A stretch of 57,414 nt of DNA from assembly GCA_016202395.1 (NCBI GenBank), contig JACQOV010000051.1:1-57414 (forward strand). The letters are read 5' to 3'. The translations under genes and the position numbers were made by a program. The DNA is from Deltaproteobacteria bacterium. GTDB taxonomy: Bacteria > JACQOV01. The notes below the pieces were generated by a model that worked only from the letters and a program-made list of their open reading frames with translations, did no database searches and was not told the DNA's origin. Every line of letters starts with the position of its first letter. The stretch's first letter is position 1. Shown piece after piece: positions 22,481 through 50,984 of this stretch.

Positions 22481-23716
22481 ATGAGATTGCTTCGAGTAAA
22501 AATTGTTTTTCTCTTCATGATGGTCGTATTCTCCTACCCGCCATCTTACGGGGGAGTTTCTTATGCCGCGATGGTTCCTCTCCGAACGAGGGTCGCGTTC
22601 TATCTTGTAGGTCATCTTGGCAGCACGCGGGTGGTGACGAACGGATCAGGAGCCGAGCAAGCCCGTTATTCTTATTATCCTTACGGTGAGATCTTAGCCC
22701 CTCACCCCAACCCTCTCCCCTTAGGGGAGAGGGCGAAGGGTGAGGGGGATCTTTCTTACCTTTTCACCGGTCAGAAGTTCGACACCGAGATCAACCTCTA
22801 CTACTACGGCGCTAGGTATTACGATCCAAAGGTGGGAAAATTTACAAGCGCAGATCCTATTGTACAGCACTTCTTGCCTTGCGACCTGAATTCATATGCC
22901 TACGTATGGAATAATCCTTTGACGGTCATTGATCCTTCAGGAGCTAAGGAGTATCGCAAGATGATTCAGGTTGGAGGAAATCGCTTTCAGGCGACGATCA
23001 CCGAATCTACAGGGTGGAATCCTTCTTTTAATGCCACGATTGAATATCTTGACGTTCAGGGAAACATAGCTGAAGCGTACTTTAACGCAGGATATGATGC
23101 CGCAACCAAAACTTTTACCGTTCATAATATGGGTACTAGCGAAATCAAGAACGCTTTTGCTCGTGAGGGAAAAGAACTGAAGGGCCTAGGAACAAAGTTG
23201 ATGAAAGAAGGATTAGCGTTTGCTGAGAGGCAAGGGGGCGTTGAAGTCATAGAACTACTGGACGTGGTTGAATTAAATACTGTTATGGCTTTGAAGAAGA
23301 ATCGTGATATTTCTGGAACACCCCTTTTCAAAATGACAAATAGGGCTTCGCAAGGGCTCGATTACAGTGTCGATAAAATGACCATTCGATCGGGGATGGT
23401 AGGAAAAGATTTGGTGTTTAATCTGAGTAAAAAAGGGTTATTTGGCCTAACATTTCTGGGATTGTATTGGAATACTTCCAAAGCTATTGCGCAGGGGAAG
23501 GATCCTTTGGACACGTCACTTATTGCTTTGGATGAGCATTTGGGAACCATTTATGGCGGTGAAGGCGAATCCGAGTTTTTCTTCTCGAGGCTTTGGGAAA
23601 TCATTGATGAGGGACTTGTCAAACCTTCACAGTCCTCTTCATCGGAACAGGTCCAGGGGGATGAACCTTATAATGAAGCGGGAGCATGGGAGGAATTTTG
23701 GACAAATGTAGACTAA
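22481..23716 (+). CDS. Cartridge 6: signal peptide + Rhs core (with palindrome) + GNAT-like tip + shared C-terminal tail
   Basis: FYLVGHLGS..WNNPLTVIDPSG; ELKGLGTKLM acetyl-CoA-binding-like motif; start ATG 22481 or TTG 22475. Confidence 0.85.
   Translation: MRLLRVKIVFLFMMVVFSYPPSYGGVSYAAMVPLRTRVAFYLVGHLGSTRVVTNGSGAEQARYSYYPYGEILAPHPNPLPLGERAKGEGDLSYLFTGQKFDTEINLYYYGARYYDPKVGKFTSADPIVQHFLPCDLNSYAYVWNNPLTVIDPSGAKEYRKMIQVGGNRFQATITESTGWNPSFNATIEYLDVQGNIAEAYFNAGYDAATKTFTVHNMGTSEIKNAFAREGKELKGLGTKLMKEGLAFAERQGGVEVIELLDVVELNTVMALKKNRDISGTPLFKMTNRASQGLDYSVDKMTIRSGMVGKDLVFNLSKKGLFGLTFLGLYWNTSKAIAQGKDPLDTSLIALDEHLGTIYGGEGESEFFFSRLWEIIDEGLVKPSQSSSSEQVQGDEPYNEAGAWEEFWTNVD
22698..22747 (+). repeat. In-frame palindrome copy P2
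   Basis: One mismatch to P1, same orientation in the gene (PHPNPLPLGERAKGEG). Confidence 0.9.
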
Positions 23717-24855
23717 GTGCTGGGATCGTGGTGGTGTTTTTCGGACTCGTACAGGTCGAGGCTTCAGTTATCACCTCTGCCCAGACTGAGAAGTTTTTTT
23801 ATCTGACCGATCATTTGGGAAGCACGCGGGTGGTCACCGATGGCTCGGGCTCAGAGCAGGCTCGCTATGCTTACTATCCGTTTGGTCAGATTCGTGGTTC
23901 CGATCTGAGCCAGCATGCTACTTTTAATACCTACACGAATCAGAAATTCGACGCCGAAATCAACCTCTACTACTACGGCGCTCGGTATTACGATGCGCAG
24001 CTGGCTCGGTTCATCAGTCCCGATCCTGCGGGGGACGGTCTGAATCTTTACGCTTACGTAGCGAATAACCCCCTCCGATATATCGATCCTACCGGCGAAA
24101 AAATCTATTTTAATTTTGCGGCGGCTCCGGACGGTTCGGGAACACAACAGCCCTTTGATGAATGGGTTGGGCGTTCATTTACGGAAGATCAAAGAGCAGC
24201 GTTCTCATTGAAAAATGGAGAGGTTGTTCTTGATGAGGAAAGGGTAGCAGCCATCGCCGATACTCAAAAGGGCTCCGGCACAATATTTGGGTCTTTTGTT
24301 GAACTTGTTCGTAGTGAAAAAAGGCTTTCGATTACCATTGCAGATTCCGATACGCCGTTGAACCTCCGCATCGATAAAGGGAGAGTGGCTCATTCTCTCA
24401 ACGAGCTTCGAAGGATCAGGGCAGAGGAGAGGAAAGCGGAGTGGCAGAAGAAACGGGAAGGACAGGGCCCTATTCGTCGGTTTTTCGGTGGCGTTTTTGG
24501 AAGGCCTGTACCTGTAGAAGAAAACGCTTTGGGCATCACCCTTTTTTATGGATCTCATCCCGATTCTCCTACGCTAGCGGAGATCTATATTGATCGTCAA
24601 AAAATTCAGAGTATTTATCCTGGATTTGTCGTCACGGAGTCTTTCGGTACGGATGCTCGTTTCCTTGAACTTTCTGACAGGCTTAATACTGTTTGGCACG
24701 AGATCGGTCATGCCTACTTGGGACTCACCGGCCAACCCTATGGAGAAGAAGCTCCTGAATTTAAAAAATACAGTGTCGACTTTTTTGCGCAAGCTGCCAA
24801 AAACAACGGAATCCCGGATAAAGTTATTCGTTACCAAATAACAGGGAAGTACTAG
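23686..24855 (+). CDS. Cartridge 7: signal peptide + Rhs core + HExxH zinc metallopeptidase-like tip
   Basis: FYLTDHLGS..NNPLRYIDPTG; WHEIGHAYLG at 24694-24723; exact start uncertain (31-nt overlap). Confidence 0.85.
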   Translation: MGGILDKCRLSAGIVVVFFGLVQVEASVITSAQTEKFFYLTDHLGSTRVVTDGSGSEQARYAYYPFGQIRGSDLSQHATFNTYTNQKFDAEINLYYYGARYYDAQLARFISPDPAGDGLNLYAYVANNPLRYIDPTGEKIYFNFAAAPDGSGTQQPFDEWVGRSFTEDQRAAFSLKNGEVVLDEERVAAIADTQKGSGTIFGSFVELVRSEKRLSITIADSDTPLNLRIDKGRVAHSLNELRRIRAEERKAEWQKKREGQGPIRRFFGGVFGRPVPVEENALGITLFYGSHPDSPTLAEIYIDRQKIQSIYPGFVVTESFGTDARFLELSDRLNTVWHEIGHAYLGLTGQPYGEEAPEFKKYSVDFFAQAAKNNGIPDKVIRYQITGKY

Positions 24856-24856
24856 C

Positions 24857-49638: not shown

Positions 49639-49805
49639 AATAGTTAGTGTAGTGTAACAGTAATCACTTTACAGGCCGTTCGTGGTGAGCCTGTCGAACC
49701 ATGAACGGAACCCCCCGATATATTTCACCCTTCGACAGGCTCAGGGTGAACGGGATATGTAAAGCCGTTACTGTTACACTACATTAGATAGTTAGGTCTG
49801 ACCCC
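49639..49805 (-). repeat. RAYT-associated repeat R9, split by the MITE
   Basis: AATAGTTAG (49639-49647) + TTAGATAGTTAGGTCTGACCCC (49784-49805); removing the MITE and one TTAG restores the 27-mer upstream of cartridge 15. Confidence 0.88.
49648..49783. mobile_element. 136-bp MITE with 16-bp TIRs and apparent TTAG target duplication, inserted in repeat R9
   Basis: TGTAGTGTAACAGTAA (49648-49663) / TTACTGTTACACTACA (49768-49783); TTAG on both sides; internal hairpins CCGTTCGTGGTGAGCCTGTCGAACCATGAACGG and TTCACCCTTCGACAGGCTCAGGGTGAA. Confidence 0.88.
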
Positions 49806-49811
49806 CCGCTT

Positions 49812-50984
49812 TTATTCACCTTCTGAAGAGAAGGAATCCAGATAGGGGCTCCAGTCGTCAGAGCTATGCGGATCCGGAAAGTTTTTATCGAGGTATTTTC
49901 CCACCTTAAGATCAATACTATCACTATTCCCAAAAGACCAGTTTGCCCCTTCTATGACCATGTTCAAGGGACTCTCAAAAGGACCTAGCACTTCTTGCTT
50001 AAGGTATTGATCGATGATCTCGGCTGCCTCTGTGGGATTCTCTGAAGCGTATAGATCGGAGGCCATCATAGTTACTGTGAAGGCTGTGGAGAATATCCCT
50101 ATTTTTTGAACGTTTTTATTTCCCAATATTTTTCCTGCCCAACGGAGGGATTTTTGGGCTGATGAAAGTCCTTCAAGTTTTAAGGATAACTTTAATGTTT
50201 CTTTTCCGAGCCTGTTCCTTTCGGCCCTATAGCGATTCATCTGATTGGCGAAGGTTATATAATCGCCCCCCTCGTTGGCAAATTCGCCAAAGGCTTCTAC
50301 CGCGAGCCCTTCCTCTTTCAAAAATCTTTCCGCGATGGTTTTGTTTCGTTCATATTCTCGGATTGAAATCTCGCCATCCTTCATTTTGTAATATTCTCCG
50401 AGAGAAAACATATTGACACGTCCCTTCATGTCGTCATAAACTCCAAGGTATCCTGTCTTGGCCTCTTTTAGCGCTTCCTCGGTGTTTTTAATTTCAGCGG
50501 AGAGGCCTTTTCCTAGACGTTGAAACCACCCCTCCTCCTCACTCATCCCACTGGGGTCCACAACTCTTAGAGGATTATTCCAGGCATAAGAATAGAGATT
50601 GAGGTCTTGGGGCAAGTCGCCATTTCTTAGAGGATCTGGACTGATGAATTTTCCGAGAGAAGGATCGTAGTATCGGGAACCATAGTAGTAGAGGTTTGAT
50701 GCAAAGTCGAATTTCTGACCTGTGAAAAGGGAAGAGAGAGCCCCTTCACCCCAACCCTCTCCCCTTTGGGGAGAGGGTAAAGGGTGAGGGGAAAAGATCT
50801 CACCATAGGGGTAGTAAGAATAACGAGCCTGCTCGGCACCTAAGACGTCGGTCATCACACGGGTGCTACCGAGAGAATCCGTCTGATAAAATCGAACGGA
50901 TGTCGTTGAACCGATCGAATTTCCAAGACTAAGAAGGATTCCTAAAATGCCATAGACTAAGAGTTGGCGAATTCGTTTCCTCAC
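49812..50984 (-). CDS. Cartridge 16: signal peptide + Rhs core (with palindrome) + coiled-coil tip + shared C-terminal tail
   Basis: GTG start after AGGAGG; FYQTDSLGS..WNNPLRVVDPSG; tail ASENPTEAAEIIDQY..DPHSSDDWSPYLD. Confidence 0.85.
   Translation of the reverse strand: MRKRIRQLLVYGILGILLSLGNSIGSTTSVRFYQTDSLGSTRVMTDVLGAEQARYSYYPYGEIFSPHPLPSPQRGEGWGEGALSSLFTGQKFDFASNLYYYGSRYYDPSLGKFISPDPLRNGDLPQDLNLYSYAWNNPLRVVDPSGMSEEEGWFQRLGKGLSAEIKNTEEALKEAKTGYLGVYDDMKGRVNMFSLGEYYKMKDGEISIREYERNKTIAERFLKEEGLAVEAFGEFANEGGDYITFANQMNRYRAERNRLGKETLKLSLKLEGLSSAQKSLRWAGKILGNKNVQKIGIFSTAFTVTMMASDLYASENPTEAAEIIDQYLKQEVLGPFESPLNMVIEGANWSFGNSDSIDLKVGKYLDKNFPDPHSSDDWSPYLDSFSSEGE
50741..50791 (+). repeat. In-frame palindrome copy P5
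   Basis: Encodes PHPLPSPQRGEGWGEG, as in P3. Confidence 0.9.

What the first reader, a model, noticed from the sequence alone, without database searches (positions are those of the whole stretch)
22481..50984. Three-part cartridges: variable middle between a core subtype and a conserved C-terminal tail
Seen: cartridges 6, 13 and 16 share a core ending DLN.Y.Y.WNNPL.V(I/V)DPSG. They also share a tail of a hydrophobic helix plus A(S/Q)(E/G)..P......I(I/A)..D(E/Q)(H/Y); 13 and 16 both end near DP(Y/H)SS(E/D)DW.PYLD. Their middles differ (GNAT-like, helical, coiled-coil). Established: Rhs variation is normally confined to the extreme C-terminus. Inference: the tail may be a membrane-insertion or delivery domain with a swappable internal payload.
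Basis: partly seen in the sequence, partly recalled or inferred. Interest (0 to 1): 0.65.

Follow-up and report, generated by a model that had tools for sequence, protein, structure and literature searches.

The report
Mosaic tails on small Rhs-core proteins
Two of the sixteen small exported Rhs-core proteins in this window really share a roughly 90-residue C-terminal module behind unrelated middle parts, but the third proposed member does not. This pattern is the ordinary domain shuffling of polymorphic toxins, not a new three-part design.

Summary
Partly confirmed. Cartridges 6, 13 and 16 share a core-end subtype (15-19 of 22 residues identical; genome background 10.4 +/- 2.0). Three other cartridges in the genome carry the same subtype without the tail. 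The tail of 13 and 16 is truly homologous: BLASTP E 1.5e-13, shuffle z 22.9, hhalign 98.4%. It covers only the last 85-100 residues, and the roughly 145-residue middles are not detectably related. The tail of cartridge 6 fails every test (hhalign 0.2-0.6%; Smith-Waterman score within the background of 59 other tips).

A tail profile searched against 1.84 billion representative proteins found only cartridge 13, the cluster of cartridge 16 and its ortholog, and one TPR-repeat protein. The hydrophobic helix is too short and too polar to span a membrane.

The 1.9-Mb genome holds about 60 such leader + core + tip proteins. All 11 tip-related pairs also share core ends, and 7 of them are related over only part of the tip.

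Best reading: recombination reassorts two-module tips, as in CdiA-CT toxins. The core end travels with the tip. The shared tail is a lineage-restricted, acidic, helical, probably non-catalytic module. Its function is unresolved.

The parts
22475..23716 (+). Cartridge 6 (413 aa): leader, Rhs-associated core, GNAT-like middle and an acidic tail that is not demonstrably related to the c13/c16 tail
   Evidence: TIGR03696 scores 78.4 bits against a cut-off of 32.5. An ortholog, P0009, is 83% identical over the tip. dN/dS is 0.28 for the middle and 0.35 for the tail.
22877..22942 (+). c06 core-end subtype, PCDLNSYAYVWNNPLTVIDPSG (residues 135-156)
22943..23434 (+). c06 middle (residues 157-320), basic (pI 9.05), GNAT-like fold
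   Evidence: ESM Atlas structure matches to GNAT clusters. Pfam Acetyltransf_1 gives E 0.04, 14.6 bits, below the 20.7-bit cut-off. pI.
23435..23713 (+). c06 tail (residues 321-413), acidic (pI 4.05); not a member of the c13/c16 tail family by any test
46072..47181 (+). Cartridge 13 (369 aa): leader, core, helical middle and shared tail
   Evidence: TIGR03696 scores 75.5 bits. No homolog of the tip other than itself in the word-indexed search.
46420..46485 (+). c13 core-end subtype, PQDLNPYAYTWNNPLRVIDPSG (residues 117-138)
46486..46926 (+). c13 middle (residues 139-285): helical, unrelated to the c16 middle by sequence
46927..47178 (+). c13 shared tail (residues 286-369): basic stretch, 15-residue hydrophobic helix, ASEDPSQAAEIIDEH, and DPYSSEDWGPYLDPFN at the C-terminus; pI 4.05
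49812..50984 (-). Cartridge 16 (390 aa from the GTG start): leader, core with an in-frame palindromic insert, coiled-coil-like middle and shared tail
   Evidence: TIGR03696 scores 74.3 bits. An ortholog, P0005, is 72% identical. dN/dS is 0.29 for the middle and 0.39 for the tail.
50547..50612 (-). c16 core-end subtype, PQDLNLYSYAWNNPLRVVDPSG (residues 125-146)
50118..50546 (-). c16 middle (residues 147-289): long helices, pLDDT about 70-80 over most of the stretch
   Evidence: Foldseek against the PDB returns only generic coiled coils, none at E<=0.001.
49815..50117 (-). c16 shared tail (residues 290-390), pI 4.16

Best explanation
The window holds arrays of small proteins. Each has a signal-peptide-like leader, an Rhs-associated core that ends in DPxG, and a variable tip of about 240 residues. 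There is no room for immunity genes between them.

The tips are built from at least two modules that recombination reassorts among paralogous cartridges. Cartridges 13 and 16 are one such case. Their middles of about 145 residues are helical and not detectably related. These middles are joined to a homologous C-terminal module of 85-100 residues that is acidic and helical.

The shared core-end subtype is not a functional third part. It is the last 25-40 residues of the core. This stretch lies downstream of the zone where paralogs homogenise each other, so it is inherited together with the tip. Cartridge 6 shares only this core end. Its tail is a different module behind a GNAT-like domain.

Shown here: the homology of the c13 and c16 tails and its limits, the exclusion of c06, the linkage of core end and tip, purifying selection on both modules, and the rarity of the tail.

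Inferred: the module exchange itself.

Inferred with about 40% confidence: the tail is a non-catalytic helical interaction module, possibly TPR-like. It would dock or present two different N-terminal modules. It would not be a membrane-spanning segment.
For: - The tail homology is real and confined to the C-terminal 85-100 residues.
- Between c16 and its ortholog the middle is more conserved than the tail: 79% against 67% identity, dN 0.109 against 0.238. If divergence alone were at work, a tail at 37% identity predicts a middle that is still recognisable. None is found.
- About 60 leader + core + tip proteins occur in the 1.9-Mb genome. Of the 11 tip-related pairs, 4 are related over the full length, 4 only in the N-terminal module, 1 only internally and 2 only in the C-terminal module. 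The two C-module pairs are c13/c16 and C2_8615/C43_2519.
- All 11 pairs have core-end identity of 12-21 out of 22, against a background of 10.4 +/- 2.0.
- In ortholog pairs dS is 1.2-1.6 in the leader and core body but 0.2-0.6 from the core end onwards. The breakpoint therefore lies inside the core, upstream of DPxG.
- The core bodies of c13 and c16 belong to different subtypes. They are 53% identical to each other, against 79-85% to c11 and c10 respectively.
- The tail has no invariant His, Cys or Arg. It is not transmembrane-like.
- Its central 46 columns align to a TPR unit at 75.7% hhalign probability.
Against: - No donor is known for either middle, and no third middle is found on this tail. 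The exchange is therefore inferred from only one paralog pair plus one ortholog.
- The two middles have nearly the same length (147 and 143 residues). They show a faint similarity (p 0.011), which would also fit extreme divergence.
- AF2 models of the tail are below pLDDT 50, so there is no structural support.
- The TPR resemblance rests on one repeat protein. No single stretch of that match is significant on its own, and Pfam TPR models do not hit the tail.
- In known polymorphic toxins the most C-terminal domain is usually the toxin. That favours the rival reading of function.
Confidence: 0.6

Rival explanations
1. CDI-like order. The shared tail is the toxic effector, non-enzymatic and perhaps membrane-active. 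The two unrelated middles are alternative entry or targeting domains, as in CdiA-CT ionophore toxins.
For: - In CdiA-CT regions a variable N-terminal entry domain precedes the toxin. Ionophore toxins share a C-terminal helical bundle behind six different entry-domain groups, and domain swaps work (PMC11630599).
- Both c13 and c16 tips are all-helical.
- The language-model feature search gives the same three top clusters for both tips. It also lists colicin-like pore-former clusters at 0.75-0.79, which is a lead only.
Against: - The tail is strongly acidic (net charge -11 to -13).
- Its only hydrophobic stretch is 14-15 residues long, with a Hessa sum of +5.6 kcal/mol or more.
- It has no glycine zipper. 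Pfam Colicin does not match.
- No immunity gene follows either cartridge.
- In c06 the enzyme-like domain sits in the middle, not at the end.
Confidence: 0.25
2. Cartridges 6, 13 and 16 form one three-part family: core subtype, swappable payload and a conserved membrane-insertion tail.
For: All three tails are about 90-100 residues long, acidic (pI 4.05-4.16) and begin with a basic stretch followed by a short hydrophobic helix. All three share the core-end subtype.
Against:
- Acidity is general: 49 of 61 tips have pI below 6.
- Three further cartridges carry the same core end without the tail.
- The hydrophobic helix is far from transmembrane-like.
Confidence: 0.07
3. Divergence only. c13 and c16 descend from one ancestral tip. 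The middle has diverged beyond recognition while the ends stayed conserved, so no module was exchanged.
For: The middles have nearly equal lengths (147 and 143 residues), both are helical, and they show a weak similarity at p 0.011.
Against: - That weak match is offset by about 36 residues from the register of the tails.
- Between orthologs the middle evolves more slowly than the tail.
- Partial relatedness is the rule among tips in this genome.
Confidence: 0.12

Closest known systems
CdiA-CT toxin regions of contact-dependent growth inhibition, especially the ionophore family (PMC11630599)
   Same: The tip after a conserved cleavage motif has two helical modules. Unrelated N-terminal modules are joined to a common C-terminal module, and the modules reassort.
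   Different: Here the carrier is an Rhs-associated core with DPxG, not CdiA with VENN. There is no immunity gene, no glycine zipper and no strongly hydrophobic bundle. It is unknown which module carries the activity.
Rhs orphan cartridges and C-terminal displacement (Poole et al. 2011, PMC3150448; Jackson et al. 2009, from memory)
   Same: Arrays of core-end + tip units lie downstream of full-length rhs genes, with recombination in the conserved core.
   Different: Each unit here has its own start codon and a signal-peptide-like leader. Each is under purifying selection (dN/dS 0.1-0.5). None is followed by an immunity gene. About 60 copies occur in a 1.9-Mb genome.
TIGR03696 'RHS repeat-associated core domain-containing protein' (short forms annotated in many genomes)
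   Same: The core domain matches at 74-78 bits, and the orthologs are annotated as RHS repeat-associated proteins by JGI.
   Different: That family name describes only the core. The tail module has no family: there were 3 hits among 1.84 billion representatives.
GNAT-fold acetyltransferase toxins (TacT/AtaT type, from memory), for the c06 middle only
   Same: A small basic domain with a GNAT-like predicted fold and a motif-A-like G-x-G stretch.
   Different: It falls below the Pfam cut-off. The residue where motif A normally has Gln or Arg is Glu. The domain is fused between an Rhs core and an acidic tail. No activity has been tested.

Membership tests
Rhs polymorphic-toxin cartridge (core + variable tip) | Rhs-associated core domain (TIGR03696) above its cut-off | tested here: met
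   c06 scores 78.4 bits, c13 75.5 and c16 74.3, against a cut-off of 32.5.
Rhs polymorphic-toxin cartridge (core + variable tip) | DPxG(L) motif at the core/tip junction, with sequence variation starting after it | tested here: met
   All three have DPSG. Tips are unrelated in nearly all of 1830 pairs.
Rhs polymorphic-toxin cartridge (core + variable tip) | YD-repeat shell in the same protein | tested here: not met
   The leader is followed directly by the core, and Pfam and NCBIfam find no YD repeats. Shells occur only in the large proteins at 29975-37333 and 37414-42414.
Rhs polymorphic-toxin cartridge (core + variable tip) | Cognate immunity gene directly downstream | tested here: not met
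   c06 overlaps c07. The gap is 35 nt after c13, and 171 nt of repeat DNA after c16.
c13/c16 tail module | Significant profile similarity of the c06 tail to the c13/c16/P0005 tail | tested here: not met
   hhalign gives 0.18% and 0.55%. hmmsearch finds nothing. The Smith-Waterman score lies within the background.
CdiA-CT-type bipartite toxin region | Two modules that occur in different combinations | tested here: met
   c13 and c16 share only the C-terminal module. Seven of the 11 related pairs in the genome are related over only part of the tip.
CdiA-CT-type bipartite toxin region | N-terminal module mediates entry and C-terminal module is the toxin, neutralised by an immunity protein | not testable with these tools
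   This needs toxicity and import assays. No immunity gene is present.
Colicin-type pore-forming domain (PF01024) | Profile match and a buried hydrophobic helical hairpin of about 40 residues | tested here: not met
   Pfam gives no hit at E<=10. ESM Atlas feature scores are only 0.75-0.79. The single hydrophobic stretch is 14-15 residues long.
GNAT acetyltransferase (c06 middle) | Pfam Acetyltransf_1 above its gathering score, or a GNAT fold | tested here: inconclusive
   Pfam gives E 0.04 and 14.6 bits, below the 20.7-bit cut-off. The ESM Atlas model matches GNAT clusters at TM 0.51-0.73 by the target row, but the model's pLDDT is only 0.63.
TPR-like helical repeat (tail) | Profile similarity to TPR units | tested here: inconclusive
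   hhalign to the repeat unit of P0007 gives 75.7%, E 2.4e-5, over 46 columns. P0007 is TPR_6 at E 1e-57. No single stretch is significant in the library search, and Pfam reports no TPR hit on the tail.

The most novel reading that the evidence does not exclude
The c13/c16 tail would be a new C-terminal docking or delivery module, with the active payload sitting internally between the Rhs core and the tail. That is the reverse of the domain order known in polymorphic toxins. It would work within a system of about 60 Sec-leader + core + tip proteins that lack immunity genes and may be loaded in trans into a core-less Rhs shell (37414-42414).
Probability: 0.15. Interest if true: 0.65.

Novelty: new member of a known kind. 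Interest (0 to 1): 0.3.

Why it matters
The shared tail is a new, very rare protein module. In 15 billion proteins it turns up in only two paralogs and one ortholog.

The pattern it belongs to, reassortment of modules within polymorphic-toxin tips, is already established for CdiA-CT regions. This case mainly shows that the same logic operates in Rhs-core cartridges of a deep-branching, uncultured lineage. It also shows that the heritable cassette starts inside the core, 25-40 residues upstream of DPxG.

The more unusual biology lies in the surrounding system. It has dozens of exported core + tip proteins without immunity genes, and a conserved core-less shell gene.

Tried and rejected
- Pfam on all 16 cartridges: nothing at E<=0.01 except weak core hits in c05.
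- Word-indexed homolog searches of the three tips: only one ortholog each for c16 and c06, and none for c13.
- Tail profile against 1.84 billion representative proteins, 61 genomes and metagenome contigs: no further tail.
- AF2 of c16 and c13 tips: pLDDT 52.7 and 43.4, with the tails below 50, so unusable for fold assignment.
- Foldseek against the PDB with the c16 model: no hit at E<=0.001, only generic coiled coils.
- PDB sequence searches: nothing significant.
- Colicin-like or pore-forming reading: rejected on hydrophobicity and the absence of a profile match.
- A general C-terminal signal shared by all tips: none seen.
- Tail as a separately translated, in-frame nested product, for example an immunity protein. 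c13 has an ATG with a Shine-Dalgarno-like stretch upstream. In c16 the candidate start is TTG, and it is CTG in the ortholog. In c06 it is ATG against GTG with poor spacing. The pattern is not consistent, so this was not adopted.
- Remote relatedness among the six tips that carry the same core-end subtype: only c13/c16 are related.
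Full report
**Anatomy.** The window is a whole contig (C28) of a 1.9-Mb, 89%-complete genome. Among the 60 species representatives offered as its nearest relatives, none was closer than domain level.

It carries two large Rhs proteins. One is at 29975-37333 (2452 aa, with core and tip). The other is at 37414-42414 (1666 aa, YD repeats but no core). It also carries 16 ORFs of 329-426 aa in two arrays. Each small ORF has three parts:
- a signal-peptide-like leader;
- an Rhs-associated core (TIGR03696, 74-78 bits in the three tested) ending in NNPxxxxDPxG;
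- a variable tip of about 240 residues (mean 240, sd 23, n = 59 genome-wide).

Neighbouring ORFs overlap or lie a few tens of bases apart, so there is no room for immunity genes. A core HMM finds about 60 such proteins in the genome.

**Core-end subtype.** The three end in P(C/Q)DLN.Y.Y.WNNPL.V(I/V)DPSG and are 16-18 of 22 identical. The genome background is 10.4 +/- 2.0. Three further cartridges on other contigs have the same subtype (15-19 of 22), and their tips are unrelated to these and to each other. The subtype is real, but it does not mark the tail.

**Tail.** The c13 and c16 tips align significantly only over their last 85-100 residues. BLASTP gives E 1.5e-13, shuffles give z 22.9, and hhalign gives 98.4%. 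The conserved blocks are:
- a basic stretch;
- a hydrophobic helix of 14-15 residues;
- ASE(D/N)P..AAEIID;
- DP(Y/H)SS.DW.PYL..F.

The c06 tail fails every test:
- Smith-Waterman p is 0.017 and 0.45.
- Its score ties with unrelated tips, and it ranks 36th of 59 against c16.
- There is no HMM hit.

**Middles.**
- c06 residues 157-320 resemble GNAT folds in the ESM Atlas and match Pfam only weakly, below the cut-off.
- The c13 and c16 middles are helical in low-confidence AF2 models. c16 shows long helices at pLDDT 70-80, and c13 shows shorter elements.
- Their only similarity is borderline (p 0.011) and out of register with the tails.

**How rare is the tail?** A three-sequence tail profile was searched with HMMER against 1.84 billion representative proteins. 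It found only c13, the cluster of c16 and its ortholog, and one TPR-repeat protein. That last hit reaches E 1e-6 only by summing five weak repeat matches. Six-frame searches of 61 genomes and a metagenome scan added nothing. Against the repeat unit of that TPR protein, hhalign gives 75.7% over 46 columns. That is far more than the c06 tail achieves, but it is a lead only.

**Exchange or divergence?** Orthologs of c16 (P0005) and c06 (P0009) come from one JGI metagenome.
- For c16, dN/dS is 0.29 in the middle and 0.39 in the tail. The middle is the more conserved part (79% against 67% identity).
- For c06, the values are 0.28 and 0.35.

Both modules are under purifying selection. Because the middle does not evolve faster than the tail, a divergence-only origin of the c13/c16 pattern is disfavoured.

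dS jumps from 0.2-0.6 (core end and tip) to 1.2-1.6 (leader and core body). The c06 ortholog also has a core body of another subtype. So the 5' part is homogenised among paralogs, and the heritable cassette begins 25-40 residues upstream of DPxG. This explains why all 11 tip-related pairs in the genome share core ends (12-21 of 22). It also explains why c13 and c16 have different core bodies but the same core end.

Of those 11 pairs, only 4 are related over the full length. Four share only the N-terminal module, one shares an internal module, and two share only the C-terminal module. The two C-module pairs are c13/c16 and C2_8615/C43_2519. Mosaic tips are therefore the rule here.

**Function.** The tail has no invariant His, Cys or Arg. 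It is strongly acidic. Its hydrophobic helix is not transmembrane-like. Pfam, PDB sequence, Foldseek and ESM Atlas searches give no assignment.

The closest known logic is the two-domain CdiA-CT region, in which variable N-terminal entry domains are joined to a common C-terminal helical toxin domain and can be swapped (PMC11630599). By that analogy the tail would be the payload.

Three observations point the other way: the lack of membrane or catalytic features, the TPR-like hint, and the mid-tip position of the GNAT-like domain in c06. On these grounds I rate a non-catalytic interaction module slightly higher (about 40% against 25%). Neither reading is shown.

**Verdict.** The c13/c16 tail is real, and c06 is not a member. 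The core subtype reflects linkage, not design. The three-part, membrane-insertion interpretation is not needed. This is a new and very rare module within the known phenomenon of modular polymorphic-toxin tips.

Noticed in passing
window 13745, 14810(-), 18882, 27131(-), 29700, 43659, 46048, 47201, 49804(-): A repeat of about 30 nt, TAGGGGGTCAGACCTAACTATCTAACTATTGG, occurs 9 times in this window and only once elsewhere in the genome (C59). It sits at gene and cartridge boundaries, and its TAG often serves as the stop codon. Inverted copies flank the ORF at 13765-14733 (-), which is Y1_Tnp (IS200-like) plus a DnaA-C HTH. This looks like a RAYT with its REP sequences.
   Followed up: partly
window: c04 about 20364-20411, c06 about 22700-22747, and the equivalent sites in c10, c15 and c16: A 48-nt near-perfect palindrome (hairpin free energy -43 to -49 kcal/mol) is inserted in frame in a loop of the Rhs core. 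It reads PHPNPLP.GERAKGEG or PHP.PSPQRGEGWGEG. It is absent from the orthologs of c06 and c10. Its arm motif occurs about 30 times in the genome.
   Followed up: partly
window 37414-42414 and 42483-43643; L002: The 1666-aa Rhs protein ends after two hydrophobic helices and has no core. The next ORF (c10) supplies leader + core + tip. This split is conserved in the metagenome relative, where the shell C-terminus is 73% identical and ends with the same last residues, followed by a c10 ortholog. Two further loci in the genome (C29, C95) have a large Rhs followed by a core-less shell of about 1800 aa. In C95 an array of small cartridges follows it. This may be a two-part Rhs system.
   Followed up: partly
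whole genome (G000): About 60 leader + core + tip proteins of 330-460 aa occur in 1.9 Mb, with no immunity-sized gaps in the arrays seen. Tip length is narrowly distributed (240 +/- 23 aa) even though the sequences are unrelated. Most tips are acidic (median pI 5.2).
   Followed up: partly
L001 and L002 (JGI sample 3300045072): In a relative, the order c16 then c15 is kept. The c06 ortholog, however, lies directly after the c10 ortholog downstream of the shell gene, not in the upstream array. Cartridges therefore move between arrays.
   Followed up: partly
window c05 (about 21785-21880) and c12 (about 45236-45330): c05 and c12 share only the first 32 tip residues, a Pro/Gly-rich hydrophobic helix directly after DPxG/DVHG (56% identity, E 6e-5 in the window-only search, 2e-4 genome-wide). 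About a dozen other tips, including those of the three large Rhs proteins, also start with transmembrane-like helices.
   Followed up: no
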